Source: Sphingobacteriaceae bacterium
Lineage (GTDB): Bacteria; Bacteroidota; Bacteroidia; B-17B0; Aurantibacillaceae
Length of the DNA: 29,892 nt
Direction: 5' to 3'
NCBI GenBank assembly: GCA_037440045.1
Contig: JBBIUW010000001.1
Coordinates: forward strand, 1-29,892
The notes beneath the pieces are model-generated. The model saw nothing but the letters and a program-made list of their open reading frames with translations, was not told the origin of the DNA and did not search any database. Below are positions 1-13,569 of this stretch, in pieces. The number at the start of each line of letters is the position of its first letter. The stretch's first letter is position 1. Both the position numbers and the translations under genes were made by a program.

Positions 1-1202
1 CTACCTGGCCTATGCTTTGCTATACGTTGTTTTCTCTGTACTTCAGAACTACTAAGTTTAAAATTATTAAACGGTACACCTAAAGGAGAAGAATGACTTA
101 AATAGTAATCTTCTTTTGTAGCATGAGACAATTTATGAAGTGTTTCATAATCCACATTAGTAACTTCAGGAACCAGTAAAAATGGACTTCCCCACCCTAT
201 TGAATCTAAGTTATAATAACTTAATAAAAAGTTATTTTCCTGAGCTGTACCAACACCACCTTGAGCCGTAATTCTTAAACTAGGTTTATTAATAAATGCT
301 TGTTTGTTAAGCTTAATTAACCCACTATTACAATCAGTAAATATTTCATTATATAACAACTCTCTTTTGTTTTTAAATTCTTCCAGTATGGGTCCAAACA
401 AAACTCCGTCAGAAATAAATGCATGGCCTCCGCAGTTAATCCCAGACTCTATTCGAAACTCTGATACCCACAACCCTTTTTTTGCTAAATATTTACCCTG
501 TATTAATGCTGAGCGATAATCACTAACCTTCAAAATAATTTTCTTTTTTATATTTCCATTTTTATCTGGAAAAAAATCAGGGAACTGCTCACAATAGCTA
601 AATAATCTCGGGTTCATTCCCGCCGAAAAAACAATAGAAGACTCTAAATTACTATTGGCATAACCTCTTAATGCTGATAGTGCATCTGAGTATTCTGACG
701 GCAACTCATTACCCTCTTTGTCATAATTAGTTTTATCAAGCTTAGTCATGATATTAACATCAATAGATCCTGGAGTAATAAAACGTTTAAGCTTTTGATA
801 TACCACTTTTTTATCTCTTTCATTATATAAAAAAAGTGTTTGATAAATCTTCTTTTCAACTGAGGTATCTGGCAGCATTTTAAAATAATGATTAATATCA
901 TAATCAATCTCAAAGTCTTCAGTACGTATTTTTTCGATTTGTTTGGATATTATTTGATTCATTAAATTCAAATAAGCGGTAATTCTTCTAGCTCTATAAT
1001 CATCTTCTTTTTCTGATATTTTTTCATATTGTATTGCTTCATTTTTACATAAACACTCTCGCATTTTTTCAATTAAATGATCCTCCATGATAGTAATAGC
1101 GCTGGATATTCCATATTTAGAAACTTTTACAGGAGTATCAATTGTAAATGCTAAACCCATTACTGGTATATGAAAAATATGTGGTGATGCAGTTTGTTTC
1201 AT
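1..1202 (-). CDS. Conserved Bacteroidota hypothetical protein, nitronate-monooxygenase/FabK-like FMN TIM-barrel; 3' end runs off the window
   Basis: Absent from the ORF track (no stop in the window). Hand translation from ATG at 1202 gives MKQTASPHIFHIPVMGLAFTIDTPVKVSKYGISS...GSIDVNIMTKLDK...SSIVFSAGMNPRLF...IILKVSDYRSALIQGKYLAKKGLWVSEFRIESGINCGGHAF...RITAQGGVGT...SIGWGSPFLLVPE...KQRIAKHRPG. All segments checked lie in one frame. Confidence 0.85.
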   Translation of the reverse strand, partial: MKQTASPHIFHIPVMGLAFTIDTPVKVSKYGISSAITIMEDHLIEKMRECLCKNEAIQYEKISEKEDDYRARRITAYLNLMNQIISKQIEKIRTEDFEIDYDINHYFKMLPDTSVEKKIYQTLFLYNERDKKVVYQKLKRFITPGSIDVNIMTKLDKTNYDKEGNELPSEYSDALSALRGYANSNLESSIVFSAGMNPRLFSYCEQFPDFFPDKNGNIKKKIILKVSDYRSALIQGKYLAKKGLWVSEFRIESGINCGGHAFISDGVLFGPILEEFKNKRELLYNEIFTDCNSGLIKLNKQAFINKPSLRITAQGGVGTAQENNFLLSYYNLDSIGWGSPFLLVPEVTNVDYETLHKLSHATKEDYYLSHSSPLGVPFNNFKLSSSEVQRKQRIAKHRPG

Positions 1203-1280
1203 AAAATATTTTTTTTAAATAAGACTTATAATTAATAGGACAATTATGTCCGAAATAAGTGATACATATTAATATTTTAT

Positions 1281-1294
1281 ATGACTTGAATCAT
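1281..1294. promoter_or_regulatory. Crp/Fnr-type palindromic box ATGAC-TTGA-ATCAT between divergent genes
   Basis: Same motif recurs at 2099, 12969 and 13014. A -7-like TACATTTA lies 22 nt downstream (1317-1324). Confidence 0.65.
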
Positions 1295-1341
1295 ATTTTA
1301 TAATATATTAAGAATATACATTTACAAAAAATTATTTCATT

Positions 1342-1914
1342 ATGAAAACAACTTTTAAATATTTGCTTGTAGCAGGAACTGTAGGAATATTTTCTTGTAG
1401 TTCAAACACAGAATCAAATGCAGAAAATGCTAATCCAACAACAGAGGCAACTGCTAATACAGAAGCCCCTACTGTTGGTCAATCAGGTGTACAAGATGCC
1501 ACATCTGCACCAAACATTGTACAAACTGCGGTAGGAAGTAAGGATCACACAACTTTAGTTACAGCTGTAAAAGCGGCTGAGTTAGTTGATGCATTAAGTA
1601 ACGCAGGTCCATTTACTGTTTTTGCACCTACAAATGCAGCATTTGATAAATTACCGGCAGGTACTGTAGATGGACTATTAAAACCTGAAAAAAAGGCTGA
1701 TTTAACAAGTATATTAGAATACCATACTTATGTTGGCTCATTAAAAGCTGAATACATGCAAGATGGTCAAGAGTTTGAAATGGTTAATGGCGATAAGGTG
1801 AAAATTACTAAAAAAGACGGTAAAACATTTGTGAATGGATTTGAAATAGTAGCTTCTATTTCTACAGCAAATGGCATGATACACGTAATCAACGACGTTT
1901 TATTACCTAAATAG
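1342..1914 (+). CDS. Fasciclin (FAS1) domain lipoprotein
   Basis: Lipobox IFSC; FAS1 motifs TTLVTAVKAAELVDAL, GPFTVFAPTNAAF and NGMIHVINDVLLP. Confidence 0.92.
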   Translation: MKTTFKYLLVAGTVGIFSCSSNTESNAENANPTTEATANTEAPTVGQSGVQDATSAPNIVQTAVGSKDHTTLVTAVKAAELVDALSNAGPFTVFAPTNAAFDKLPAGTVDGLLKPEKKADLTSILEYHTYVGSLKAEYMQDGQEFEMVNGDKVKITKKDGKTFVNGFEIVASISTANGMIHVINDVLLPK

Positions 1915-2040
1915 TAAAATAATTTAATCAAAAAAAGCAAATTTTATTTGGGTTTTGTTCCGCAACAAATAAAACACTATTAATTTTTGTAAACCTGTTT
2001 ATTACTTTTTTCATTTAAGTTGAGGCTTTTTGATTAAATA

Positions 2041-2064
2041 GAAGGCGACCAATAGGTCGCCTTC
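2041..2064. terminator. Perfect GC-rich hairpin, possible terminator or RNA-stability element after the fasciclin gene
   Basis: GAAGGCGACC-AATA-GGTCGCCTTC (10-bp stem). No clear U-tract on the + strand. Confidence 0.45.
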
Positions 2065-2098
2065 GTCAATTATAAACAAAATTAATTATTTCATAATT

Positions 2099-2112
2099 AT
2101 GATTTCAATCAT
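2099..2112. promoter_or_regulatory. Crp/Fnr-type palindromic box ATGAT-TTCA-ATCAT
   Basis: Palindromic arms; -7-like AACCTTTG at 2135-2142, 22 nt downstream; ATG at 2157. Confidence 0.7.
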
Positions 2113-2156
2113 TAAATATAAATTGTAAAAGCTCAACCTTTGTCAAAAAAAAGATT

Positions 2157-2750
2157 ATGACACCAATAGAAATAGATAAAATAGTAAATCCTTATTCATA
2201 TAAGGAATACAAAGAGCTTGTAATAAAATTAGCAGAAGAAAAAAAATGTACCGGAGATTCGAGTCCTGAAAGAATTAATGCTACTACACTTAACGCCCAA
2301 AGAATGAAACGAATTGACAAGCAAATTGAATTAAATAATGATTTAAAAAATGTTATTTTATCAATTAATAAAAAATATACTTGGACTCTAATTGTTGAAT
2401 CTTGGTGCGGAGATGGAGCACAGTGTGTTCCAGTTATAGCAAAAATAGCTGAATCAAATCCAAACATTGAATTGAACCTTATTTTAAGAGATGAAAATCC
2501 AAGCTATATGGATATTTTTTTAACTAATGGTTCTAGAGCGATACCTAAATTAATTATTGAATATAATAACAAAGTTATTGGAACCTGGGGGCCAAGACCT
2601 AAAGCAATACAAAAAATGGTAACAGAATACAAACAAAATAATTCTAATGTCTCTCACGAGGATTTTGTTACCATATTACATCTATGGTATGCTAGAGATA
2701 AAACACAATCATTGCAAAATGAATTAAAAGAGATAATATCCGAATTATAA
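2157..2750 (+). CDS. Thioredoxin-family protein (WCGD type)
   Basis: IVESWCGDGAQCVP active-site region, NGSRAIPKLI cis-Pro loop and WGPRP motif. Confidence 0.88.
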   Translation: MTPIEIDKIVNPYSYKEYKELVIKLAEEKKCTGDSSPERINATTLNAQRMKRIDKQIELNNDLKNVILSINKKYTWTLIVESWCGDGAQCVPVIAKIAESNPNIELNLILRDENPSYMDIFLTNGSRAIPKLIIEYNNKVIGTWGPRPKAIQKMVTEYKQNNSNVSHEDFVTILHLWYARDKTQSLQNELKEIISEL

Positions 2751-2776
2751 AATAATAATTATAAAAAATTAAAACG

Positions 2777-3718
2777 ATGACTACAATAAGCAAAATTGAT
2801 GTGACTGTTCTTGAGCCAAGAATGAAACATCCAACAATTTTTAAAAAATTTGATGAAATAACTGCAGGTGAAAGTTTTATAATTTCCAACGATCACGATC
2901 CTAAACCTTTATATTATCAACTAATTGGAGAGCGTGGGAATATCTTTTCATGGGAATATATTGAAAATGGGCCCGATAACTGGCTGGTGAAAATTCAAAA
3001 AAATAATTCAACTAAAGAAGCTAGTATTGGTGAATTAGTGGCTAAAGATTTAAGAAAAGCTGAAGTGTTTAAGAAATTTAATATTGATTTCTGCTGTGGT
3101 GGTAAAAAAACCTTATCACAGGTTTGTAATGACAAACAAATCAATATAAAAGAGGTTGAAACAGAACTTGAAAAATTAGATTCAACTACCGAATCCGTAT
3201 CACAAAACTATAACGACTGGTCATTAGATTTTTTAGTTGATTTCATAATCAATACTCATCACAAATACGTGAAAAATTCGCTGCCTCTTCTTCTTGAATA
3301 TACTTCAAAAGTTGCCAAGGTACATGGCAAAGAACATCTAGAAGTAATTGCTATTTATGATTTATTTAAAGAAGCTTCTGACGAATTAAACTCACATATG
3401 ATGAAAGAAGAAAATGTCTTATTTCCATATATAAAGCAATTAGTTAACGAGAAGAATTCAGTAAATGAAGGATGTTCTTTTGGAACTGTCAAAAACCCAA
3501 TCAGAATGATGGAACACGAACATGATGTAGTTGGAAATATATTTAAAACTATTAGGGAACTATCTAACGATTATACTCCACCTGAAGATGCATGTACAAC
3601 CTACAAACTTTCATATAAAAAATTAGAAGAATTTGAGAATGATTTACATCAACATATTCATTTAGAGAATAATATATTATTCCCAAAAAGTATAAAATTA
3701 GAATCAGAATTATTATAA
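2777..3718 (+). CDS. ric: Iron-sulfur cluster repair di-iron protein (Ric/YtfE/ScdA) with N-terminal DUF2249 domain
   Basis: N-terminal DVTVLEPRMKHPTIF...NDHDPKPLYYQ (DUF2249); ScdA_N DFCCGG; hemerythrin-like HHKY, HMMKEENVLFP, EHEH and HIHLENNILFP. Confidence 0.93.
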   Translation: MTTISKIDVTVLEPRMKHPTIFKKFDEITAGESFIISNDHDPKPLYYQLIGERGNIFSWEYIENGPDNWLVKIQKNNSTKEASIGELVAKDLRKAEVFKKFNIDFCCGGKKTLSQVCNDKQINIKEVETELEKLDSTTESVSQNYNDWSLDFLVDFIINTHHKYVKNSLPLLLEYTSKVAKVHGKEHLEVIAIYDLFKEASDELNSHMMKEENVLFPYIKQLVNEKNSVNEGCSFGTVKNPIRMMEHEHDVVGNIFKTIRELSNDYTPPEDACTTYKLSYKKLEEFENDLHQHIHLENNILFPKSIKLESELL

Positions 3719-3724
3719 TCACTC

Positions 3725-3755
3725 AACAGGCCTCAAATGAGGCCTGTTTATTTTT
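3725..3755 (+). terminator. Intrinsic terminator-like hairpin after ric
   Basis: AACAGGCCTCA-AA-TGAGGCCTGTT followed by TATTTTT. Confidence 0.7.
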
Positions 3756-3761
3756 ATTGCC

Positions 3762-4568
3762 ATGTATATAGATGAAAATACTAAAATATCAAAAATCATA
3801 AATGATACACCTGAGGCTATTGATGCTATTGTTTCTCTATCGAAACATTTTGAAAAATTGCGAATCCCAATCCTTCGAAAAACACTCGCTTCAAGAGTAA
3901 CAATAAAACAAGCTGCCAAAATTGGAGGAGTATCGGTTAATGATTTTTACAAGAAACTATATCCTTTAGGATTTACATTTGAAACTAGTAAAACTAACAA
4001 CCTTGATTCCGAAAAAGAGGAAGAGGCTTTATTCATTAATAATTTTGAAAATGGTAATGTAGAGGAATTAGATGTAAGAGGAATATTAAAACAAAATAAA
4101 GACCCATTTAATCTTATAATGGATTCGCTAGAAAAACTTCCTGATGGATATACTTTAAATATCATTAATACATTTGAGCCAATTCCATTAATAAATATTT
4201 TATCAAAAAAAGGATATACGCATCAAACAATTTATAAAGACAAACAATTGGTACATACTTATTTCAAAAAACAAATAAGCACAAGCAAAACGATTGATTT
4301 AAATCAAGGTAAAAGCAAAGAAGAATCTGCAGAACTATTAAAAAAATATAAAACAAATATTAAAGAGATAGATGTAAGAAATTTAGAAATGCCATTACCT
4401 ATGTCTACTATTTTAAATGAGTTATTATTATTAAAGGACGATTATTTATTATTTGTTCATCATAAAAAGGTACCTAAATTTTTATTTCCTGAGCTTGCAG
4501 AAAGGGGCTATAAATGGCATATACAGGAAATAAAAGAAGATGATGTGAAATTATATATCTTTAAATAG
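3762..4568 (+). CDS. DUF1858 + tandem DUF2249 (TusA/SirA-like) domain protein
   Basis: N-terminal PEAIDAIVSLSKHFEKLRIPILRKTLASRVTIKQAA (DUF1858-like); two LDVR/IDVR-started domains (LDVRGILKQNKDPF...FEPIPL; IDVRNLEMPLPM...HHKKVPKFLFPEL). Confidence 0.8.
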   Translation: MYIDENTKISKIINDTPEAIDAIVSLSKHFEKLRIPILRKTLASRVTIKQAAKIGGVSVNDFYKKLYPLGFTFETSKTNNLDSEKEEEALFINNFENGNVEELDVRGILKQNKDPFNLIMDSLEKLPDGYTLNIINTFEPIPLINILSKKGYTHQTIYKDKQLVHTYFKKQISTSKTIDLNQGKSKEESAELLKKYKTNIKEIDVRNLEMPLPMSTILNELLLLKDDYLLFVHHKKVPKFLFPELAERGYKWHIQEIKEDDVKLYIFK

Positions 4569-5854
4569 TGATACAGCCAAACATAAAAGATGTAAAAACT
4601 GCTAATGTTGTAATGTTTCATTACATTACAGCTAGTATTCTTTTTTTGGTTATTTGTTGCTTAGTCTTATTTTCTTATCAATCATTTATAGGTCATTATT
4701 TTCATCCAAAATTATTAGCCATTACACATATTACAACACTTGGTTGGATAAGTATGGTTATTATTGGGTCACTTTACCAATTAGCTCCAGTTATTTCAAA
4801 CAGCAAGCTTTTTAGTTTAAAACTAGCTCAGGTCTCTTACTTCTTGATTTTGATTGGCACAACAATGCTAGCTTACTGTTTTTGGGAATTTAATGTGGGT
4901 TATTTAATGCAAGTAGCTTCATCCTTATTGTTTACAGGGGTTAGCTTGTTTGCTCTTAACATGTATTTAACCGCTAATAAAGCAGATGAAAAAAGTATTG
5001 AATCAGACTTTTTAATAAGTTCAGTTATTTGGTTTTGGATGACTGTGTTTTTGGGAGTATTGCTAGCATTTAATTTTCGTTATGCATTTTTACCAAAAGA
5101 GCATTTATACTTTCTGAAAATTCATGCCCATATAGGGCTTGTAGGTTGGTTTTTATGTTTAATAATCGGTATCGCTTCCAGACTGGTTCCTATGTTTTTG
5201 ATTTCTGGGAAACTAAATAAAACACGTTTAAATTATGCCTATTATCTTTTAAATATTGGATTATTGGGATTTATAATAGATAGTATATTTTTTAATGGCA
5301 TCAACAGATCATTTATATATATTATTCCAATCATCATTTCATTAGCGTTTTTTCTGATGTATATTAAAGAAGCCTATCAAAACAGATTAAAAAGAACTTT
5401 AGATATAGGACTTAAACACACCTTTATTTCATTTATTTTAATTATCATCCCAGTAAGTATATGGGTAATTTTAAAAACTATAATTACCGACGAAAAATTA
5501 AAAACTCAATTATCAATTGCCTTAACCTTTAGTATCTTATTTGGATTTATAAGTTTATTAATTTTAGGGCAAACATTTAAAAATTTAGCCTTCATTTCTT
5601 GGTTAAAAAACTATCAGAACTATTCGGGCAATTCTGAAGCACCTTTACCTAAAGACCTGTATTCAGAGAATATCGCAAATATGCAATTGTATCTGTTTTT
5701 AGCTGGTTTTTTAGTTACTTTGATAGGTATCGTTATTTCGAACGAGATCTCTATTCTAATAGGCGCAATCTGCTTATCTGTTACTGCAGTACTTTATAAT
5801 ATTAACGTGTTTAAAATTGTGTTTCATAAACGCAAATCACCAACAATCATATAA
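4568..5854 (+). CDS. Polytopic (~12 TM) membrane protein with conserved His-x5-GW motifs, haem-copper-oxidase subunit I/NnrS-like
   Basis: GTG start overlaps the upstream TAG. Hydrophobic throughout; motifs THITTLGW and HAHIGLVGW. Confidence 0.7.
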   Translation: MIQPNIKDVKTANVVMFHYITASILFLVICCLVLFSYQSFIGHYFHPKLLAITHITTLGWISMVIIGSLYQLAPVISNSKLFSLKLAQVSYFLILIGTTMLAYCFWEFNVGYLMQVASSLLFTGVSLFALNMYLTANKADEKSIESDFLISSVIWFWMTVFLGVLLAFNFRYAFLPKEHLYFLKIHAHIGLVGWFLCLIIGIASRLVPMFLISGKLNKTRLNYAYYLLNIGLLGFIIDSIFFNGINRSFIYIIPIIISLAFFLMYIKEAYQNRLKRTLDIGLKHTFISFILIIIPVSIWVILKTIITDEKLKTQLSIALTFSILFGFISLLILGQTFKNLAFISWLKNYQNYSGNSEAPLPKDLYSENIANMQLYLFLAGFLVTLIGIVISNEISILIGAICLSVTAVLYNINVFKIVFHKRKSPTII

Positions 5855-5855
5855 C

Positions 5856-6182
5856 ATGAACTTATATACTGAAAATAATAAAATTGAAATAGATATTCTT
5901 CATAATCTAAAAGAGATTATTGACCCTGAAGTTACAATCAATATAGTAGATTTAGGCTTAATATATAAGGTTAACTATAACAATGAAATCAATAAAATTC
6001 ACATAGTCATGACTTTATCTACAAAAGGATGTCCGATGGGAGATTTAATTATGTCGCAAATAAAGGAATGCATCAATAGGTATTACCCAACTAGTGAGCT
6101 TGAACTAGAATTAGTTTGGGATCCGGAATGGACGAGGGATTTTATTACACCAAATGGAAAAAAACAGTTGGGGCTTTATTAA
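5856..6182 (+). CDS. DUF59 / SufT-like metal-sulfur cluster biosynthesis protein
   Basis: IIDPEVTINIVDLGLIY, TLSTKGCPMG and VWDPEW motifs. Start moved to the ATG at 5856 (MNLYTEN), 1 nt after the upstream stop. Confidence 0.88.
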   Translation: MNLYTENNKIEIDILHNLKEIIDPEVTINIVDLGLIYKVNYNNEINKIHIVMTLSTKGCPMGDLIMSQIKECINRYYPTSELELELVWDPEWTRDFITPNGKKQLGLY

Positions 6183-6185
6183 ATG

Positions 6186-6557
6186 TTATTTAAACATTTT
6201 AATTTGCATGATTGTGCTGATACTTTGTGCTCTCTGTTTAATTAATTCCGCATTTTCTCCTTCAAATAACTCATCTACTGTTTCATTGAACAGTATTGTC
6301 CATTGAGTAAAATCTTTAATGGTAAAAGGATGTTTAGAGTGTATTGCTAAATGCTGCTGCATAGGATTTCCGTTATAATTGCCTGTATAAAACAACACGT
6401 TTTCCCAAAAACGATACATGATCGGTAAATGTTGCTCCCAATCAACTTTCACAACATCAGAAAAAAAATGACTAATGATTTTATCTTGCTTTACTTTCTC
6501 GTAAAAAACATTCACTAGTTTTTCAATGTCTTTTCTATTTAAAATATCTTTTTTCAT
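6186..6557 (-). CDS. Group III truncated haemoglobin
   Basis: DIEKLVNVFYEKVKQD, DWEQHLPIMYRFWENVLF, GNPMQQH, F..W..LF.ETVDELFEG and A..IK.RAQSI motifs. Confidence 0.9.
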   Translation of the reverse strand: MKKDILNRKDIEKLVNVFYEKVKQDKIISHFFSDVVKVDWEQHLPIMYRFWENVLFYTGNYNGNPMQQHLAIHSKHPFTIKDFTQWTILFNETVDELFEGENAELIKQRAQSISTIMQIKMFK

Positions 6558-6629
6558 GCGTAATTCTTATTGTTTTTAATTTATTGCAACATGATATTTA
6601 TAGTTATTAAAACAATTATAAATTCATGT

Positions 6630-7397
6630 TTATAAATCTTTACGTTTAAATTTAACAAGAGACACCCAATATGGAATTGCTATCCACAGAAACAAAATAA
6701 TAAACACTAATACCACCCCCAGAGTAGTCCCAAAAAAGTCTTTAAAAATAGCCCCAGTATATCCCATCATAGCAGAAACATCTAAATGCAGAAGAATTAG
6801 TATGCGAGCTAAATCAATTGGATTTAGAGCTGTAATTCCAACCATCATTTTTTCAATAGGGTAATCTGCTAATTGAAATAATAAAAACAAGACTATACCG
6901 TCAAAAAGCAAAGCAAAAAACAACCACAACATAATTGATATACCAATTCCCTTAGCTTTATCACGTGTTATAATAGAACTTAAAAAAGCAATAGACACAA
7001 ATACTGTTGAAATAAATAATCCAACCAACAACATCATAAAGCCAACGTCTCCGGGAGCATAGATTAAAATAGGAATTCCCACTCCAATAAAAAATGATAG
7101 TAATAATGAGATTACCAAACCGAAAAATAAACTCCACCAAATTTTAGACCTATTAATAGGCTGACTGAGCAACAATTCAATAAACTCTGAACTATTATAT
7201 AAATAAATGGTAGAAAAAATTACAGATACTAAAGGCACAGTTAATAAAACAACATTTAATAATGTCAAAATTCCTTTAGTACTATTATCCTCTAAACTAA
7301 ATACGCTCCAAGCTAACACAGCCAAAATAAGCGTGTAAACCAATACTATTTTGTTTTTTAAAATATCTAAAACTATAAACTTTACTATCCTATTCAT
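6630..7397 (-). CDS. nosY: Nos ABC transporter permease NosY
   Basis: ABC-2 permease (ELLLSQPINR, LNPIDLARILILL) directly downstream of nosF. Confidence 0.88.
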   Translation of the reverse strand: MNRIVKFIVLDILKNKIVLVYTLILAVLAWSVFSLEDNSTKGILTLLNVVLLTVPLVSVIFSTIYLYNSSEFIELLLSQPINRSKIWWSLFFGLVISLLLSFFIGVGIPILIYAPGDVGFMMLLVGLFISTVFVSIAFLSSIITRDKAKGIGISIMLWLFFALLFDGIVLFLLFQLADYPIEKMMVGITALNPIDLARILILLHLDVSAMMGYTGAIFKDFFGTTLGVVLVFIILFLWIAIPYWVSLVKFKRKDL

Positions 7398-8103
7398 TGC
7401 CTTTATTTCTTAAAACGTTTGCAATTGCTTTTGATATTTTTTCTTCTCCGGTTGTTTCTTTTAAATCCGAAATAGTTTTATGAAACTTAACATGTCCTTC
7501 TTGCATAAATACAACATGAGTAATTAAATCGTCTAATTCACTCAGTAAGTGTGAAGTAATTAAAATGAGTTTCCCTTTTTGTTTTTCGGTAATAATTTTT
7601 TCTTTTAAAATTTCGGAAGCTAAAGGATCTAGACCTGCAGTAGGCTCATCGAGAATTAAAATATCAGGATTAAATAAAAAGGCGAGTGTTGCACTTACTT
7701 TTTGTGTTGTTCCTCCTGATAATGTTCGCATACGCTTATCAAACATGTCACTAGACAAATACTGATGCAGTAATTCTTCGTCCAAAACCTGATCTGATTT
7801 CCGGATATCTTTAATCATATCGATAATTTGTCCAATCGTCATATTATCAGGATAGCGACCAATTTGCGGCATATAACCAATTTGTTTACGGTACTGATAA
7901 TTTTGCGAAATTAACTCCCCTTTAACTTTAATAGTTCCTTTAGTGGGAATAACCATTCCTAAAATACTTTTTATTAATGTTGTTTTTCCACAACCATTTG
8001 GGCCAATTAAAGCAATACACTCTCCTTTGTTAAACGACAAATTCACATTGTTTAATACTTCCAACTTTCCGAAGTTCTTATATAAATTACTAATCTCAAT
8101 CAT
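7390..8103 (-). CDS. nosF: Nos ABC transporter ATP-binding subunit NosF
   Basis: Walker A GPNGCGKTT, signature LSGGT, Walker B ILILDEP, H-loop ITSH; lies between nosD and nosY. Confidence 0.9.
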   Translation of the reverse strand: MIEISNLYKNFGKLEVLNNVNLSFNKGECIALIGPNGCGKTTLIKSILGMVIPTKGTIKVKGELISQNYQYRKQIGYMPQIGRYPDNMTIGQIIDMIKDIRKSDQVLDEELLHQYLSSDMFDKRMRTLSGGTTQKVSATLAFLFNPDILILDEPTAGLDPLASEILKEKIITEKQKGKLILITSHLLSELDDLITHVVFMQEGHVKFHKTISDLKETTGEEKISKAIANVLRNKGNE

Positions 8104-9335
8104 AAAGTAAGTGAGTGCATTAAAGGCGTATTATCAATAAAATTATCTGGTGTTAAACTAGGCATGATTTTCTCAGACTTATCAAGTAATGTAACCATAA
8201 AGCTTCTGAATAATAACATAGCGGGTGGGTTTTTCTCAACTATGATAGAGAAAATACTTAATGGATGATATGGGACGTCTCCAACCTTATCTTTATTTAA
8301 ATCATATCCTTCATACTTATCCCAATAATTAGAATTAAAAGTATTTAATACTAAACTTCCATTTGTGCTAATATCAAATGTATTTCCAATAAAATTATTT
8401 TTTGTAATTTCATTATCCATACAACTTGCCTGTATCTTCATCCCCCAACCATTAGACTCGAAAACATTTTTTTCAACCTTAATTCGATTAGTGCCTTCCA
8501 TATAAATACCAGACGTATTTCTTTTAAATTTATTTCCGATAATATAACTATCTGATATTTCTTTAAGCATTAATCCATAGGCTGCATCTCCCCAATTCTC
8601 TTCAAATGTGTTATTAAACATTTTTACTTTATGAGTGAACATAACAGCAACACCAGCCCCATTACTTTTAAAAACATTAGAAATATACGCATCGCTGTTG
8701 GAGAACATAAAATGTAACCCGTATCTGATATTGTTAGTTGAGATATTTCTCCAAATAATTGAATTCGTCACAAACTCAAAATAAATACCATCACGGTGTC
8801 CGGAAATAGAATTACCTACTATTTGCAAACTATCACTTTTCCAACAATGTATTCCATTGCCTATTTGTTGTTCTTCAATGCCATATGCAATGAGTTTATT
8901 GTTTTTAATAACACAATGTTTGCTATACTGTAAATAAATTCCAAAAAAATTATCATCCAAAACATTATTGCATATAGAAACATGGTGACTATCGTAAATT
9001 TTTATTCCTCCTGGGTCATTAAGTGTAGCATATCCCGAATGCTGGACTTTAAAACCTGTAAACAAAACGAAATTAGCTTTTATTGATACAACTTCGTACT
9101 GCTTTTGTCCATCTAAAATTGGAAGATTTTTTCCGATTAAGGCTATTGATTTATCAATAATGAGATTTCCTTCTTTGTATATTCCTCCAAACACAACTAT
9201 ACTGTCACCAACTGCACTTTGTTGAACGGCTTTTTTTATAGAATGAAATTCTTTATCGGTACCCACATATAGCTGCCGTGCTTCTAACCTGAAGGAAAGA
9301 AAAAAAACAATTAATATGCAGTGCCAGACTTTCAT
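8100..9335 (-). CDS. nosD: Nitrous oxide reductase maturation protein NosD (beta-helix)
   Basis: GNGIHCWK, HRDGIYFEF, RYGLHFMFS, NYWDKYEGYDLNKDKVGDVPY and CASH-type repeats. Confidence 0.93.
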   Translation of the reverse strand: MKVWHCILIVFFLSFRLEARQLYVGTDKEFHSIKKAVQQSAVGDSIVVFGGIYKEGNLIIDKSIALIGKNLPILDGQKQYEVVSIKANFVLFTGFKVQHSGYATLNDPGGIKIYDSHHVSICNNVLDDNFFGIYLQYSKHCVIKNNKLIAYGIEEQQIGNGIHCWKSDSLQIVGNSISGHRDGIYFEFVTNSIIWRNISTNNIRYGLHFMFSNSDAYISNVFKSNGAGVAVMFTHKVKMFNNTFEENWGDAAYGLMLKEISDSYIIGNKFKRNTSGIYMEGTNRIKVEKNVFESNGWGMKIQASCMDNEITKNNFIGNTFDISTNGSLVLNTFNSNYWDKYEGYDLNKDKVGDVPYHPLSIFSIIVEKNPPAMLLFRSFMVTLLDKSEKIMPSLTPDNFIDNTPLMHSLTL

Positions 9336-9336
9336 G

Positions 9337-9777
9337 TTATTGATTTATTATTTGCCAACTAATTATTTCAGCATTCCATCTAACTAAATATGTGCCTGCA
9401 CTATCTTTATTTGTAAAAGCTGCGACATTGCCTCCCATAGGACTGCTTATATTTTCTCCTTTCACAAACGTTAATTTATCAGAAAGTAATAAATCGTTTG
9501 GTAGTAAATAATTATTGATATAAAAATGAGCATTCGACATTTTATCTTTATTATCATTTTTATAGCTCATCATACAAGCCAAATCATCAAACTTATAGGC
9601 TCGTCCTTTCTCGGTAACTAATTCACATGCAAAACGTTTATCTGAAATTGACATTTTACAATTGTCACAATCATCCTTATTTATATTAATTTTTTCTGGC
9701 CCTGAGTGGCCACATGCAACTAATAAAACAAAAGTAGCAGCACTAATAAATAGGTTTAATTTTTTTAATGTTCTCAT
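9337..9777 (-). CDS. nosL: Copper chaperone lipoprotein NosL
   Basis: CDNCKMSISD, KFDDLACM and SPMGGN motifs; lipobox LVAC. Start moved to the ATG at 9777, which forms an ATGA overlap with the nosB stop. Confidence 0.88.
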   Translation of the reverse strand: MRTLKKLNLFISAATFVLLVACGHSGPEKININKDDCDNCKMSISDKRFACELVTEKGRAYKFDDLACMMSYKNDNKDKMSNAHFYINNYLLPNDLLLSDKLTFVKGENISSPMGGNVAAFTNKDSAGTYLVRWNAEIISWQIINQ

Positions 9778-10352
9778 TTTTTTGAAAATTTTACTTCTTT
9801 TATTACAGCTATTAACATCAATACCCCACTTCCGATAAACATCCAACCACCTGAATCAGGAATAGAATAAGCACCAAAATTAAGCAATTGTTTAAATCCA
9901 ATAAGTGGTGGTTGATAAGCCATTCCAGGAACAATAATTGCAGCATGTGGGTCTAATTCATGTCCGTAATTATATTCCCATCTCCAAAAATCAATCATTG
10001 CTATAACCCCAAATAAAACAAAAAGTGTAAATAAAGTGTACAGGATTTTTTTCTTTCCAAGAACTGCAGCTATTAAAGCTAACACTGCATAAAAAAAGAT
10101 AATATAAGTAAGTATTGAAAACTCTACAAAGTCTTTAGCATGAAGTGTTTTCATACCAATGTAGTGATTTAATCCATTAATGATTTCAACGTCACCACCC
10201 AATTTATCAGCGAAAATTTTCAAATTAAGTCCTTCAGGATATTGTGGTGCATCTAAGTCAATTTGCCATATAGGAACATATACAGAATAGACTAATAAAC
10301 CGGCTGATATTATCAATAAAATTCTTGACAATATGGATATATTATTCTTCAT
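9774..10352 (-). CDS. nosB: Clade II nos accessory membrane protein NosB
   Basis: WQIDLDAPQYPEGL, INGLNHYIGM and GMAYQPPLIG motifs; ~4 TM; sits right after nosZ. Confidence 0.8.
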   Translation of the reverse strand: MKNNISILSRILLIISAGLLVYSVYVPIWQIDLDAPQYPEGLNLKIFADKLGGDVEIINGLNHYIGMKTLHAKDFVEFSILTYIIFFYAVLALIAAVLGKKKILYTLFTLFVLFGVIAMIDFWRWEYNYGHELDPHAAIIVPGMAYQPPLIGFKQLLNFGAYSIPDSGGWMFIGSGVLMLIAVIKEVKFSKK

Positions 10353-10371
10353 GATTTCAAATTTTAAGTAT

Positions 10372-10411
10372 AAAAAAAGGGAGCAGTTTTATTATTTAAT
10401 ACCTGCTCCCC
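10372..10411 (-). terminator. Intrinsic terminator between nosZ and nosB
   Basis: On the - strand: GGGAGCAG-(16 nt)-CTGCTCCC followed by T7. Confidence 0.7.
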
Positions 10412-10429
10412 TTCTAACAATTTCATTTT

Positions 10430-12421
10430 TTATTTGGCAGCAGCCTCTTCAGCCTTAGGTTGGTTGGTACCAACGCTCCATACCAATGGTACATTACTTC
10501 CTGCAGGAGATACGCGAACATATCCTTGCATTTCTTGATGTAATGCACTACAGAAGTCTGTACAATACATTGGAGAAATACCAACTTTATCTGGAGTCCA
10601 TTTTAAAGTTTGAGTTTCGCCTGGCATAATTAACAACTCTGCATTAATTGCACCTTTAATTGCAAATCCGTGCGGAACATCCCAATCTTGTTCTAAGTTT
10701 GTGATATGGAAGTATACTTCATCTCCCATTTTAATTCCTTCGATGTTATCAGGCGCAAAGTGAGAACGAACACAAGTCATATACACATGTACTTTATTCC
10801 CTTCTCTTACTACTTTAGATTCAGGTTCACCTTTAGTTACGTAAGGATGTTTGTTTTCATCGATTTTGAAAATCTTAACTTGATTTTTTTGAATCTTTTC
10901 AGCTAACACCGCTTGAGCATAATGAGGCTCTCCAATAGTTGGGAAATCTAAAATCATTTCCATTTTATCGCCACTGATATCAAATAATTGAGCACTTTGA
11001 GATAACTCTGGACCTGTTGGTAAATAACGGTCTTTAGTAATTTTATTGTAAGCAATTAAATACTTACCTGTAGGATTTTTAGAATCTCCTTCAACCACAC
11101 ATAAGTGACCAACTGAGTAGAAAGTAGGAACACGATCAACTACTTTTAAATCTTTAATGTTCCATTTAACAACTTCTGAAGAAACGAAGAATGAAGTATA
11201 AGCATTTCCTTTAGCATCAAATTCTGTATGCAATGGCCCTAATCCTGGTTTTTTCACTTCACCATATAAAGCTGCCTCATATTTAATAATTGGTAACCCA
11301 TCATAAGCTCCATCAAATGTTTTTGCTGCAATTGCTTTTTGGATTTTATCAAAACTAAATACAGGAATTAATGCTGCTAATTTACCGCTACCTACAATGT
11401 ACTCACCTGTTGGATCAACGTCGCAACCATGAGGAGATTTGGGGCAAGGAATCATATAACATACATCTGGAAAATCTTTTACGTTTAAAACAGTAACTTC
11501 ATTTCTAATTTCAGAAGTTGCAGAATGAGTAACATCGCTGTAAACATTATGTGCGTATTTTGCAGCAACCTTTCTTCCTTTGCCTGCTTTAATATACTCT
11601 TCTGCTTTTTTCCAGTTAACCGCCATGATAAAATCTTTATCTTTTTGAGATGCATTAACCTCTAATAAAGTATTAGCTTGTTCGGTATTATAACAAGAGA
11701 AGAAGAACCATCCGTGTGATTTTCCTTTACCTGCTCGGCTTAAGTCAAAATTTACACCTGGGCATTCTAATTGGAATGCTATATCCATTTTACCATCTTC
11801 TTTACCAACACTAATAAAACTTAAATACCCTTTAAAGTTTTGTTTGTAGGTATTAATAGGCACATCACCATTTACATCATCTGGAGGAACACTGAAACGA
11901 GTCCCCGCTACAACATACTCAGTATTTTCTGTTAAGAAAGGGGAAGAGTGATTACCTGCACTATTTGGTAACTCAATAATTTCTTCTGTTCTAAAAGTTT
12001 TTAAACTAATTCGAGCAACACGAGGGGTATTATTAGCATTACCAAATACCCAACGACCATCTGCATCTCCATTTGTTTTTGATAACTGAACGTGATGTAA
12101 ATCATCCCAAGGTACCATACCATGCGAAGTATTTAACATAGGTTTTGTTTCTTCGCTATATCCCCAACCTTTTTCAGGATCTACCGAAAATACTGGAATT
12201 ACACGAAACAAACGTCCGCTTGGTAAACCATAAACGCTCATTTGTCCACTAAAACCTCCACTCACAAAATTATAAACTTCATCGTATTTGCCCGGAGCAA
12301 CGTACGATTTAACTGCTGCATTACCTGTAACAACATTACTGGTGTTTTGAGGCTTGCATGATTGTAACGCTGCTGCGATAAGTGTACCGCCAACAGCTAG
12401 AGTAACCAAATTGTTTTTCAT
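10430..12421 (-). CDS. nosZ: Sec-dependent (clade II) nitrous-oxide reductase, lipoprotein signal
   Basis: CuZ-type His motifs DDLHH, GNHSS, PKSPHG, GPLHT, VGHL and GEPH; CuA motif CTDFCSALHQEM; signal ...AAALQSC with no twin-Arg. Confidence 0.97.
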   Translation of the reverse strand: MKNNLVTLAVGGTLIAAALQSCKPQNTSNVVTGNAAVKSYVAPGKYDEVYNFVSGGFSGQMSVYGLPSGRLFRVIPVFSVDPEKGWGYSEETKPMLNTSHGMVPWDDLHHVQLSKTNGDADGRWVFGNANNTPRVARISLKTFRTEEIIELPNSAGNHSSPFLTENTEYVVAGTRFSVPPDDVNGDVPINTYKQNFKGYLSFISVGKEDGKMDIAFQLECPGVNFDLSRAGKGKSHGWFFFSCYNTEQANTLLEVNASQKDKDFIMAVNWKKAEEYIKAGKGRKVAAKYAHNVYSDVTHSATSEIRNEVTVLNVKDFPDVCYMIPCPKSPHGCDVDPTGEYIVGSGKLAALIPVFSFDKIQKAIAAKTFDGAYDGLPIIKYEAALYGEVKKPGLGPLHTEFDAKGNAYTSFFVSSEVVKWNIKDLKVVDRVPTFYSVGHLCVVEGDSKNPTGKYLIAYNKITKDRYLPTGPELSQSAQLFDISGDKMEMILDFPTIGEPHYAQAVLAEKIQKNQVKIFKIDENKHPYVTKGEPESKVVREGNKVHVYMTCVRSHFAPDNIEGIKMGDEVYFHITNLEQDWDVPHGFAIKGAINAELLIMPGETQTLKWTPDKVGISPMYCTDFCSALHQEMQGYVRVSPAGSNVPLVWSVGTNQPKAEEAAAK

Positions 12422-12426
12422 ATTAT

Positions 12427-12921
12427 TTATTTTAAACCGTCATTTTTACGCATAAACTCTAATAGTTGTCTTGCTTCATCATCAGTTAAACTTTGATTTG
12501 GCATACGAACTAAACATAATTCCAACATAGCTTGTGCTTCAGGATCTTTATCAATCATAGGATCTGGATTAGTAATAAAGTTCATAATCCATTCACCTGT
12601 TCTACGTGTAGTAACACCTTTCCAACCTGGTCCAACTAATTTCTCTTCTGTATACTTATGACAAGAACCGCATTTTACTCCCGCAGTAGTTTCTCCGGCA
12701 GTTGCTTTTGCTTCATCTAATTTAGTTCCAAGTGTCAATGATTCGGCTGTCCATTTTCCTTCACCTCTTTTAGGATCGTATGATTCGGGAGCAGGAGCTG
12801 CAGCCTGAGGTTGCTCTTGAGTAGTTGTTGCTTGAGTTTCGGTAGATTTTTTTTCTTCGCCTCCACAACTAATTAGCAGAGCCGAAACAGCGAATGATGA
12901 GATAATGATTAAGTTTTTCAT
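12427..12921 (-). CDS. Mono-haem c-type cytochrome lipoprotein, probable NosZ electron donor
   Basis: Lipobox LLISC, CGSCH haem motif, VGPGW and distal RMPNQ; 5 nt upstream of nosZ. Confidence 0.9.
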   Translation of the reverse strand: MKNLIIISSFAVSALLISCGGEEKKSTETQATTTQEQPQAAAPAPESYDPKRGEGKWTAESLTLGTKLDEAKATAGETTAGVKCGSCHKYTEEKLVGPGWKGVTTRRTGEWIMNFITNPDPMIDKDPEAQAMLELCLVRMPNQSLTDDEARQLLEFMRKNDGLK

Positions 12922-12937
12922 AATTAGAATTTTTTAA

Positions 12938-12945
12938 CAAATTTA
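12938..12945 (-). promoter_or_regulatory. Bacteroidota -7 promoter element TAAATTTG of the nos operon
   Basis: Exact TAnnTTTG match 16 nt upstream of the cytochrome ATG and 23 nt from the nearest palindromic box. Confidence 0.65.
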
Positions 12946-12968
12946 GTTTGTTGTGTCGGGTCAAAATT

Positions 12969-13049
12969 ATGATTGAAATCATAAAATAGACTAGATTAAT
13001 ATCATTTATAAATATGATTATAATCATATTTATAAATGATATTATATTT
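12969..13049. promoter_or_regulatory. Phased array of ATGAT-N4-ATCAT boxes upstream of the nos operon
   Basis: ATGAT-TGAA-ATCAT (12969), TAGAT-TAAT-ATCAT (12992), ATGAT-TATA-ATCAT (13014) and a half-site ATGAT (13036); spacings 23, 22 and 22 nt. Confidence 0.72.
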
Positions 13050-13058
13050 TCATATCTC

Positions 13059-13074
13059 ATATATATATATATAT
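13059..13074. repeat. (AT)8 dinucleotide microsatellite
   Basis: ATATATATATATATAT read directly from the sequence. Confidence 0.9.
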
Positions 13075-13134
13075 CAAATACCTGAAGTACTTTGTAATTA
13101 TAAAAACTCAAAAAAACTAAAAGTCTATTTTTGA

Positions 13135-13569
13135 TTATTGGGGTTATTCTTTTCTTTTATAATAGCAAAAACAGAAGAATTCAATGAAGAAAAAACTATC
13201 CATTCAACATCAATAAATTTTTAAAAGAGCTAAAGAGAGACATAAGTTTATCCATTCTTAATACATTTAAAAAGTTTGAATTTTTGATCATAATTATACT
13301 GATTGCTTTAATTCCAGTAATTGGAATAATAAATTCTTTATTATCTTTTATAACTCAGGCTTACTCTAATGACAGATTATAGATTAAAAAGAAAAGGAAT
13401 ATCTGTTAATAAAAGTGAGCGCTTTTATAAGGAAAATAAGTCTGAAATGTTTGCAATAAGCTTGGGGTTTATGTTGTTACGCTTAATTTCTTTAATTCGT
13501 TGGTTTTTAGCTCCAACCTACGGAATTGTAGCTTCTTACACATATTATAAAAATATAGTACAATTATGA
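13135..13569 (+). pseudogene. Frameshifted 3' remnant of an EI24/CysZ-family membrane protein gene
   Basis: Three segments join across two frameshifts: LLGLFFSFIIAKTEEFNEEK / NYPFNINKFLKELKRDISLSILN...LIALIPVIGIINSLLSFITQAYS / MTDYRLKRKGISVNKSERFYKENK...WFLAPTYGIVAS. This follows the EI24 pattern (LSEKTE..YPF..RGI..IP.IG..MDY..ER..W.LAP.Y). Shifts lie near the A6 run at 13190-13195 and near 13369. Confidence 0.65.

What the first reader, a model, noticed from the sequence alone, without database searches (positions are those of the whole stretch)
1281..13027. A shared ATGAY-N4-ATCAT operator with fixed geometry defines a Bacteroidota anoxia/NO regulon
Seen: ATGAC-TTGA-ATCAT (1281), ATGAT-TTCA-ATCAT (2099), ATGAT-TGAA-ATCAT (12969) and ATGAT-TATA-ATCAT (13014). 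In each promoter the proximal box lies 22-23 nt from a -7-like element: TACATTTA (1317), AACCTTTG (2135) and TAAATTTG (12945, - strand). A weaker TTATTTCG (1258, - strand) does the same for the divergent gene. Established: FNR/DNR boxes are TTGAT-N4-ATCAA centred near -41.5. Inference: this is an altered-specificity (T-to-A) Crp/Fnr-family site acting as a class-II-like activator, strongest where the -7 is degenerate. No regulator gene lies in this window.
Basis: partly seen in the sequence, partly recalled or inferred. Interest (0 to 1): 0.8.

Follow-up and report, generated by a model that had tools for sequence, protein, structure and literature searches.

The report
Operator of a Bacteroidota nitrogen-oxide regulon
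Four copies of a 14-bp palindrome (TATGAY-N4-RTCATA) sit at a fixed distance upstream of the nitrous-oxide reductase and nitric-oxide-stress genes, and are most likely the binding site of a dedicated, unnamed Crp/Fnr-type activator found in many Bacteroidota that consume the greenhouse gas N2O.

Summary
ATGAY-N4-RTCAT occurs 5 times in the window against 0.29 expected. Four copies are intergenic, at the stated coordinates.

A matrix trained only on other genomes ranks these four sites at the top of the 3.35-Mb genome. The fifth top site lies on contig C2, 62 nt upstream of a Crp/Fnr gene (P0002).

P0002 relatives were found in many Bacteroidota lineages. In 80 fetched loci the box precedes fasciclin, the regulator itself, cytc-nosZ, norC, ric and others. 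142 of 160 hits are intergenic.

A TAnnTTTG -7 box follows 22-23 nt after the box in 146 of 216 promoter pairs. This puts the box centre at about -41.5/-42.5, the class II position. A -33 TTG is almost always missing.

The base before TGA is A in 85% of half-sites, where FNR sites have T. The regulator's recognition helix is invariantly VETVIR, where FNR has VETISR. It has no invariant Cys or His, so it is not an FNR-type Fe-S oxygen sensor.

In a sample of 300 genomes of the class, 24 of 30 regulator-positive genomes carry nosZ, mostly within 20 kb. Yet 78 of 102 nosZ-positive genomes lack the regulator, so the regulon belongs to a subset of lineages.

I found no published description. Verdict: a real, conserved operator and a new variant of Crp/Fnr control. 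Binding, transcription starts and the signal are untested.

The parts
1281..1294 (.). Box ATGACTTGAATCAT in the divergent intergenic region between the 3-1202(-) gene and the fasciclin gene. It is placed to serve both promoters.
   Evidence: Matrix score 20.8, rank 4 in the genome. An orthologous box precedes fasciclin in 43 loci, and a TGA-N6-TCA core lies upstream of 16 of 17 orthologues of the 3-1202 gene.
1317..1324 (+). -7-like element TACATTTA, 22 nt after the box. Predicted start near 1329; box centre -41.5.
   Evidence: geometry statistics; -7 box position from PMC9723704. Inferred, no transcription start mapped.
1251..1258 (-). Weak -7-like element TTATTTCG (2 mismatches), 22 nt from the box on the other side, for the divergent gene.
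   Evidence: Weak on its own, but orthologues of the gene carry the box.
3..1202 (-). 5' part of a conserved gene of unknown function (604 aa in full-length orthologues). Likely regulon member.
   Evidence: No Pfam or NCBIfam hit. Atlas lead: nitronate-monooxygenase-like, score 0.92. A TGA-N6-TCA core lies upstream of 16 of 17 orthologues.
1342..1914 (+). Fasciclin-domain protein, the most frequent target of the box across genomes.
   Evidence: Pfam PF02469, E 1.6e-32; 43 box-fasciclin pairs.
2099..2112 (.). Box ATGATTTCAATCAT upstream of the Thioredoxin_9 / RIC operon.
   Evidence: matrix score 20.2, rank 5. Conserved in G004. ric genes carry the box in 12 other loci.
2135..2142 (+). -7-like element AACCTTTG, 22 nt after the box. 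Predicted start near 2147; box centre -41.5.
   Evidence: Inferred.
2157..6182 (+). Apparent operon: Thioredoxin_9, RIC/ScdA-hemerythrin with DUF2249, DUF1858-DUF2249, a haem-copper-oxidase-like membrane protein, and an FeS_assembly_P protein.
   Evidence: Pfam. Genes are closely spaced or overlapping.
12969..12982 (.). Proximal box ATGATTGAAATCAT of the nos promoter.
   Evidence: matrix score 23.9, rank 1. A TGA-N6-TCA core is present in 29 of 30 cytc-nos promoters; stacked orthologous promoters.
12938..12945 (-). Perfect -7 box TAAATTTG, 23 nt from the proximal box. Predicted start near 12933; box centre -42.5; leader about 12 nt.
   Evidence: RNA contigs of a ~92% relative end at 12918 and 12912, with no RNA contig laid from 12924 to 13300 (weak support).
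13014..13027 (.). Distal box ATGATTATAATCAT, 45 bp upstream of the proximal one (centre about -87.5). No intact divergent gene and no -7 box on the + strand.
   Evidence: The double box with 44-45 bp spacing also occurs in G004 and L080.
6630..12921 (-). nos operon: cytochrome c, clade II-type nosZ, a 192-aa unknown, nosL, nosD, nosF, nosY.
   Evidence: Pfam.
6186..6557 (-). Bacterial-like globin downstream of nosY. Globin genes carry their own box in 4 other loci.
   Evidence: Pfam.
888..901 (.). Fifth pattern match, inside the coding sequence. Probably chance or a minor site.
   Evidence: matrix score 17.6. Also present in the very close G004, which is uninformative.

Best explanation
The boxes are operators for a homodimeric Crp/Fnr-family transcription factor. 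In this genome it is encoded on another contig (C2:9056-9649, 197 aa, P0002).

The factor recognises TATGAY-N4-RTCATA. This is the FNR/DNR core TGA-N6-TCA with A instead of T at the discriminating flanking base. The difference matches an Ile in place of FNR Ser212 in an otherwise FNR-like recognition helix (VETVIR).

[quoted passage not shown] These promoters have a -7 box but no -33 element. The dimer therefore most likely acts as a class II activator that stands in for the missing upstream element.

Targets in this genome:
- cytc-nosZ and the nos accessory genes
- the Thioredoxin_9 / RIC operon
- fasciclin and the divergent 604-aa gene
- the regulator's own operon, which includes a haem-copper-oxidase/NnrS-like membrane protein
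- on contig C2, probably copper-supply genes (MbnP/MbnH; a 122-aa protein, a YtkA-like protein and a TonB-dependent receptor)
In relatives the box also precedes norCB and nirK.

What is shown: the sites, their conservation, their geometry relative to the -7 box, and the genomic linkage and co-occurrence with the regulator.

What is inferred: binding by P0002, activation rather than repression, the transcription starts, and the signal. The signal is probably NO or another nitrogen-oxide cue, as for DNR/NnrR, and not direct O2 sensing by an Fe-S cluster.
For: - Enrichment: 5 matches against 0.29 expected. The genome's top 8 matrix hits all fall on two contigs.
- The only other top-scoring site in the genome lies 62 nt upstream of the Crp/Fnr gene P0002. 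Every orthologue in the genus has such a box.
- In 80 loci from Flavobacterium, Chitinophagaceae, Saprospiraceae, Sphingobacteriales, Cytophagales and Myroides, 142 of 160 hits are intergenic. They precede fasciclin 43, the regulator 36, cytc-nos 30, the 122-aa gene 24, ric 12, norC 10 and Rrf2 5.
- Internal operon genes serve as controls and lack the core: unk407 1 of 79, nosD 3 of 42.
- In the 99%-complete close relative G004, TATGAYN4RTCATA gives 8 sites against 1 for the control pattern. The five intergenic sites precede nos (2), the regulator, fasciclin and nirK-cytc.
- Geometry: TAnnTTTG lies 22 or 23 nt after the box in 146 of 216 pairs. The -7 box spans -12 to -5 (PMC9723704). Only 12 of 146 promoters have TTG at -37 to -29.
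- Specificity: A precedes TGA in 85% of half-sites. LRVETVIRT is invariant in 11 orthologues and aligns to FNR LTVETISR.
- Co-occurrence within the genus: the regulator is present in 6 of 7 nosZ-positive genomes and in 0 of 29 nosZ-negative ones, apart from one fragment.
- Co-occurrence across the class: 24 of 30 regulator-positive genomes have nosZ, against 78 of 270 regulator-negative ones. In 22 of the 24 the two genes lie within 20 kb.
- nos loci of 8 regulator-negative genomes: 7 have no box, with best matrix score below 10.
Against: - No binding, expression or transcription-start data exist for any member. The RNA evidence is only contigs from a ~92% relative.
- The paralogue P0001, immediately upstream of P0002, also has ETVIR and could bind the same box.
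- One regulator-negative genome (G059) has a good box near nos, and G014 has the box but no detected regulator (89% complete).
- A site overlapping -35 could also serve repression.
- The distal nos box (centre about -87.5, 45 bp from the proximal one) is not on the usual class I helical phase.
- The matrix was trained on part of the sites it later scores in relatives. The core-only search addresses this.
- Related genomes are not independent, so the Fisher p-value overstates the case.
Confidence: 0.78

Rival explanations
1. The sites and protein family are the same, but the factor is a repressor. Its operator overlaps the -35 region and blocks RNA polymerase until a signal releases it.
For: The box covers -48 to -35. 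Negative control of nosZ by Crp/Fnr regulators was inferred for the clade II organism Nitrosophilus labii (PMC11539149). The regulator has a box at its own promoter, which would also fit negative autoregulation.
Against: The target promoters lack a -33 TTG: only 12 of 146 have one. That is typical of activator-dependent promoters. The strict 22-23 nt spacing to the -7 box is what a protein-polymerase contact needs; simple occlusion would tolerate variable positions. Crp/Fnr sites at -41.5 are classically activating (established knowledge).
Confidence: 0.1
2. Another Crp/Fnr paralogue binds the boxes instead of P0002, or together with it. The candidate in this lineage is the tandem gene P0001 (C2:8282-8947, helix YETVIRS).
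For: P0001 shares ETVIR and sits directly upstream of the box that precedes P0002. The genome has at least 8 further Crp/Fnr-like genes.
Against: P0001 occurs in only 4 of 91 loci, whereas the box and P0002 co-occur across orders. The other paralogues have different helices: RETLVR, TESCVR and RVVISR. P0002 is the one linked to nos and carries the conserved box at its own promoter.
Confidence: 0.08
3. The palindromes are chance products of AT-rich intergenic DNA, or a repeat with no regulatory role.
For: The genome-wide count of the bare 14-mer (28) is near the expectation from composition. The genome is 31.8% GC.
Against: The sites are concentrated in two contigs. They are conserved across orders at orthologous promoters with diverged flanks. 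Their distance to the -7 box is fixed. They are absent from internal operon genes and from regulator-negative genomes.
Confidence: 0.01
4. The factor is an FNR-type direct oxygen sensor, and the regulon is a general anaerobic regulon.
For: The best structure-database match by sequence is FNR of Aliivibrio fischeri. The targets are anaerobic respiration genes.
Against: There is no invariant Cys, and P0002 itself has none. nrdD promoters lack the box, 1 of 11. The close, complete genome G004 has only five intergenic sites, all at nitrogen-oxide genes or the regulator.
Confidence: 0.03

Closest known systems
DNR (Pseudomonas) and NnrR (alpha-proteobacteria): NO-responsive Crp/Fnr activators of nir, nor and nos
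   Same: Crp/Fnr fold. No FNR Cys cluster. A small dedicated regulon of nir, nor and nos. A palindrome with the TGA-N6-TCA core. The regulator lies close to its target genes. An NnrS-like membrane haemoprotein gene accompanies it, as nnrS accompanies nnrR. DNR is among the best structure-database sequence matches (3dkw, E 5e-14).
   Different: The box has A, not T or another base, before TGA: DNR uses TTGAT-N4-ATCAA and NnrR uses TTGCG-N4-CGCAA (PMC1274295). The helix is VETVIR. No invariant His that could ligate haem. Scores lie far below every NCBIfam equivalog cut-off. The promoter is of the Bacteroidota type (-7 TAnnTTTG). The regulon also includes fasciclin, RIC and copper-supply genes.
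E. coli FNR and class II FNR-dependent promoters
   Same: A dimer site of 5-4-5 symmetry centred near -41.5. The helix keeps Val, Glu and Arg at FNR positions 208, 209 and 213.
   Different: Ser212 is replaced by Ile. The first base is A, not T. There is no N-terminal Cys cluster, so no Fe-S oxygen sensing. The regulon is small.
NssR / NssA-C of Campylobacterota (Wolinella succinogenes, clade II nosZ)
   Same: Crp/Fnr regulators that control nap and nos in a clade II N2O reducer (as summarised in PMC11539149).
   Different: They use the canonical TTGA-N6-TCAA site and belong to a different phylum and promoter type. No orthology was shown here.
HcpR / HcpR2 of Bacteroides and Porphyromonas
   Same: A Crp/Fnr nitrosative-stress regulator in the same phylum, lacking Cys. 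Its motif co-varies with helix residues (PMC1274295).
   Different: The HcpR2 motif is GTAAC-N4-GTTAC, with Pro at the position of CRP residue 181. Its regulon is essentially hcp only. The family here keeps Glu at that position and controls nos, nor and ric.

Membership tests
Crp/Fnr transcription factor family (the regulator P0002) | N-terminal cNMP-binding-type beta-barrel plus a C-terminal HTH_Crp_2 domain | tested here: met
   PF00027 E 2.2e-24, PF13545 E 1.5e-10, PF00325 E 6e-7.
Crp/Fnr-type operator (the boxes) | Inverted repeat with the TGA-N6-TCA core, matching a dimer of helix-turn-helix domains | tested here: met
FNR subgroup | Cys cluster (three N-terminal Cys plus one central) that ligates a [4Fe-4S] cluster | tested here: not met
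   P0002 has no Cys, and the 11-orthologue alignment has no invariant Cys.
FNR subgroup | Recognition helix E-x-x-S-R and site TTGAT-N4-ATCAA | tested here: not met
   The helix is VETVIR. T precedes TGA in only 7% of half-sites and A in 85%.
DNR / NnrR subgroup | Controls nir, nor and nos, and lacks the Cys cluster | tested here: met
   The box precedes nos, norC and nirK. No Cys.
DNR / NnrR subgroup | Sequence membership (curated equivalog models) and the cognate motif | tested here: not met
   Best NCBIfam hits are FixK at 66 bits (cut-off 300) and Fnr at 64 bits (cut-off 228). The motif differs.
DNR / NnrR subgroup | Haem-dependent NO sensing | not testable with these tools
   No invariant His. 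The ligand is unknown.
Class II activator-dependent promoter | Activator site centred near -41.5 relative to the transcription start, with a weak or absent upstream promoter element | tested here: inconclusive
   The centre at -41.5/-42.5 is inferred from the -7 box. The -33 TTG is absent in 134 of 146 promoters. No transcription start was mapped; RNA contigs give only weak support.
NnrS / haem-copper oxidase subunit I superfamily (co-transcribed membrane protein P0003) | 12-helix fold with conserved His ligands | tested here: inconclusive
   Model pLDDT 88.6. TM-score by query (TMq) 0.67-0.76 to CcoN and NorB; an NnrS fragment is among the AlphaFold DB hits. H46, H181 and H316 are invariant. 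No Pfam hit even at E 10.

The most novel reading that the evidence does not exclude
The regulator and the haem-copper-oxidase/NnrS-like membrane protein always encoded just downstream of it form a previously unrecognised nitrogen-oxide sensing module of Bacteroidota. It may respond to N2O or NO through the membrane haemoprotein rather than through a cofactor in the regulator itself. The Ser-to-Ile change in the recognition helix, paired with the T-to-A change in the box, insulates this regulon from the canonical FNR/CRP-type sites present in the same cells.
Probability: 0.2. Interest if true: 0.8.

Novelty: new variant of a known kind. Interest (0 to 1): 0.62.

Why it matters
Bacteroidota with clade II nosZ are abundant N2O sinks in soils, sludge and waters. 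How they switch nosZ on is essentially unknown; the papers I found say that knowledge of regulation outside Proteobacteria is limited (PMC6264515, PMC11539149).

This finding gives a concrete, testable regulator-operator pair, and a predicted regulon: nos, nor, nirK, ric, fasciclin and copper supply. It also gives a simple rule for finding these promoters in metagenomes: TATGAY-N4-RTCATA, 22-23 nt upstream of TAnnTTTG.

It also offers a natural example of specificity change at the base that separates CRP sites (G) from FNR sites (T). Here the base is A, paired with Ile at the position of FNR Ser212.

Finally, it shows how class II activation may work on the unusual Bacteroidota sigma-A promoter.

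Tried and rejected
- Complex prediction with two P0002 chains plus the nos box DNA was not folded, because the tool gives no verdict for DNA. It is not evidence either way.
- Read laying: only Logan contigs from metatranscriptomes of a ~92% relative were available. They give no read-level 5' ends. The contigs end near the cytochrome c start codon, which is weak support only.
- Seven literature searches (one further attempt returned a syntax error) found no description of this motif or of a Flavobacteria/Bacteroidota nos regulator. The library lacks most subscription journals and RegPrecise, so prior description cannot be excluded.
- Pfam and NCBIfam gave nothing for the 407-aa membrane protein, the 3-1202 gene, the 122-aa gene or the 192-aa nos-cluster gene.
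- nirK was not found in this 72%-complete genome. At the position syntenic with G004's nirK there is no such gene.
- The idea that the distal nos box serves a divergent gene was rejected for this window. There is no intact ORF and no -7 box on the + strand.
- The bare 14-mer is not over-represented genome-wide. Only its placement is informative.

Full report
**Observation.** A fifth match, at 888-901, lies inside a coding sequence. The window has 5 matches to ATGAYN4RTCAT against 0.29 expected from dinucleotide shuffles.

The window is contig C1 of a 3.35-Mb, 695-contig, 72%-complete assembly with 31.8% GC. Genome-wide the bare 14-mer occurs 28 times. Composition alone predicts about that number, so the evidence lies in placement, not in count.

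**Gene context.** Searches give the following.
- 3-1202(-): conserved gene of unknown function
- 1342-1914: fasciclin
- 2157-6182: Thioredoxin_9, RIC/ScdA-hemerythrin-DUF2249, DUF1858-DUF2249, a haem-copper-oxidase-like membrane protein, and an FeS_assembly_P protein
- 6186-6557(-): globin
- 6630-12921(-): nosY, nosF, nosD, nosL, a 192-aa unknown, nosZ, cytochrome c

Each box lies in a promoter-sized gap in front of one of these units.

**Genome-wide ranking.** I trained a 20-nt symmetric matrix only on sites found in other genomes, upstream of nosZ operons and of regulator orthologues. In this genome its best hits are 12969, 13014, C2:8980, 1281, 2099, C2:14275, 888 (coding) and C2:19076.
- C2:8980 lies between two tandem Crp/Fnr genes, 62 nt upstream of P0002 (197 aa).
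- C2:14275 precedes a 122-aa gene, a YtkA-like gene and a TonB-dependent receptor gene.
- C2:19076 precedes MbnP and an MbnH-like gene, divergent from an Rrf2 gene.
- norCB is also on C2.

**Conservation.**
- In relatives holding nosZ, TTTATGAY-N4-RTCATAAA lies upstream of the cytochrome c-nosZ operon, while the flanks diverge.
- Orthologues of P0002 each carry the box 75-195 nt upstream.
- In the 99%-complete close relative G004, TATGAYN4RTCATA gives 8 sites against 1 for the reversed control. The five intergenic sites precede nos (two), the regulator, fasciclin and a nirK-cytochrome c fusion.
- A scan of one genome per species found at least 590 stretches encoding relatives. They come from Flavobacterium, Myroides, Chitinophagaceae, Saprospiraceae, Sphingobacteriales and Cytophagales.
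- In the 80 fetched loci, 142 of 160 matrix hits are intergenic. They precede fasciclin 43, the regulator 36, cytc-nos 30, the 122-aa gene 24, ric 12, norC 10, Rrf2 5 and globin 4.
- An unbiased count of 5-4-5 palindromes upstream of the regulators puts ATGAT and ATGAC arms first.
- A search that fixes only TGA-N6-TCA finds the core in 29 of 30 cytc-nos promoters, 19 of 22 fasciclin promoters and 16 of 17 promoters of the 604-aa gene. It finds it in only 1 of 79 and 3 of 42 internal operon genes.

**Geometry.** In 216 box-gene pairs, TAnnTTTG (at most 1 mismatch) starts 22 nt (93 pairs) or 23 nt (53 pairs) after the box. No other offset exceeds 20.

Transcription-start mapping in Flavobacterium psychrophilum places this sigma-A box at -12 to -5 (PMC9723704). 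The 14-bp box therefore spans about -48 to -35, with its centre at -41.5 or -42.5. Only 12 of 146 such promoters have a TTG where the -33 element should be. This is the anatomy of a class II activator-dependent promoter, inferred rather than measured.

In the window:
- the fasciclin, Thioredoxin_9 and divergent promoters have 22-nt spacers;
- the nos promoter has a 23-nt spacer with a perfect TAAATTTG;
- the distal nos box is centred near -87.5.

Metatranscriptome contigs of a ~92% relative cover cytc-nosZ, end at 12918 and 12912, and none was laid from 12924 to 13300. This is compatible but weak.

**Specificity.** In the core-only set the base before TGA is A in 85% of half-sites and T in 7%. 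The base before that is T in 78%. This is the position that separates CRP sites (G) from FNR-like sites (T) and that co-varies with helix residues (PMC1274295).

The regulator's helix LRVETVIRT is invariant in 11 orthologues sharing 42-91% identity. It aligns to FNR LTVETISR, so FNR Ser212 is Ile here. That Ser212 reads the first T is my recollection of the FNR literature and was not checked here. A causal link between Ile and A is inference.

**Regulator.** P0002 has both Crp/Fnr domains but falls far below every curated subfamily cut-off. It has no Cys. The family has no invariant Cys or His, so it has no FNR-type cluster and no obvious DNR-type haem ligand. Databases call it only 'Crp/Fnr family transcriptional regulator'.

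In 81 of 91 loci it is followed within a few bases by a 407-aa membrane protein. The predicted structure of that protein (pLDDT 88.6) has the haem-copper oxidase subunit I / NorB fold, and an NnrS fragment appears among the AlphaFold DB hits. This recalls the nnrR-nnrS pairing.

The tandem paralogue P0001 also has ETVIR but occurs in only 4 loci.

**Co-occurrence.**
- Within the genus, the regulator is present in 6 of 7 nosZ-positive genomes. It is absent from the 29 nosZ-negative genomes, apart from one fragment.
- In 300 genomes sampled across the class, 30 have the regulator.
- Of these, 24 have nosZ, against 78 of 270 without the regulator. In 22 of the 24 the two genes lie within 20 kb. 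Related genomes are not independent.
- 78 of 102 nosZ-positive genomes lack the regulator.
- In 7 of 8 regulator-negative genomes examined, the nos locus has no box.

The regulon therefore belongs to a widespread subset of Bacteroidota, not to the whole phylum.

**Signal.** The targets are nos, nor, nirK, RIC, globin, an Rrf2 gene and copper-supply genes. The anaerobic ribonucleotide reductase lacks the box. Together these point to a dedicated nitrogen-oxide response rather than a general anaerobic switch. The effector is unknown.

**Comparison and novelty.** The system works like DNR/NnrR-type control of denitrification genes and like class II FNR activation. It fails the sequence, motif and cofactor criteria for membership in FNR, DNR/NnrR or HcpR2.

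Papers found note Crp/Fnr or Rrf2 genes near clade II nos clusters (PMC6264515), and Crp/Fnr control in Campylobacterota through TTGA-N6-TCAA (PMC11539149). I found no description of this box or of this regulator clade.

I rate it a new variant of a known kind: well supported computationally, and experimentally untested.

Noticed in passing
L036:1501-3317 (G000 contig C2:9056-10875): The regulator gene is followed within 3 nt by a 407-aa, 12-helix membrane protein with no Pfam family. The pair is conserved in 81 of 91 loci. The predicted fold matches haem-copper oxidase subunit I / NorB / NnrS, with invariant His46, His181 and His316.
   Followed up: partly
G000 contigs C33:5439, C45:1377, C133:5318, C417:2860 (outside the window): A second class of intergenic palindromes, ATGAC-N4-GTCAT (for example ATGACTAAAGTCAT), not linked to nitrogen-oxide genes. 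It may be the site of another Crp/Fnr paralogue. Canonical TTGAT-N4-ATCAA and TTGAC-N4-GTCAA sites also occur in 8 intergenic places.
   Followed up: no
window 3-1202 (-): The gene divergent from fasciclin is 604 aa in full-length orthologues and has no Pfam hit. The Atlas places it next to 'nitronate monooxygenase domain-containing' clusters (score 0.92). A TGA-N6-TCA core lies upstream of 16 of 17 orthologues.
   Followed up: partly
L079:6076-7906 (G000 C2:19076-20906): A one-mismatch box (ATGCTTTCAATCAT) precedes MbnP and an MbnH-like di-haem peroxidase, divergent from an Rrf2 (NsrR-like) gene. Another box (C2:14275) precedes a 122-aa protein, a YtkA-like protein and a TonB-dependent receptor. 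Copper supply may be part of the regulon.
   Followed up: partly
L079:7960-9100 (G000 C2:20960-22100) compared with L072 (G004): In G004 a thioesterase gene and a 142-aa gene are followed by a box and nirK-cytochrome c. In this genome the same two genes are followed by no nirK, and nirK was not found anywhere in the 72%-complete assembly. The organism may be an N2O/NO reducer without nitrite reductase.
   Followed up: partly
window 12983-13049: Between and beyond the two full nos boxes lie TAGATTAATATCAT (12992; 2 mismatches in one arm) and a half-site ATGAT (13036), as another first-stage note says. I confirmed the sequences but did not test whether the extra sites are conserved.
   Followed up: partly
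L090:19463-19957 and 10 other loci; L089:18269-19204; L138:9373-9870: Further recurrent genes next to boxes in other genomes: an LTXXQ/Spy-like periplasmic protein divergent from nos (11 loci), quinolinate synthase NadA divergent from ric (7 loci), and an azurin-like cupredoxin (3 loci). Identified from their sequences only.
   Followed up: no
window 12000-12921: Activated-sludge and wetland metatranscriptome assemblies hold contigs 88-95% identical to cytc-nosZ, so close relatives are transcriptionally active in those habitats. The best DNA holder is a subsurface metagenome.
   Followed up: partly
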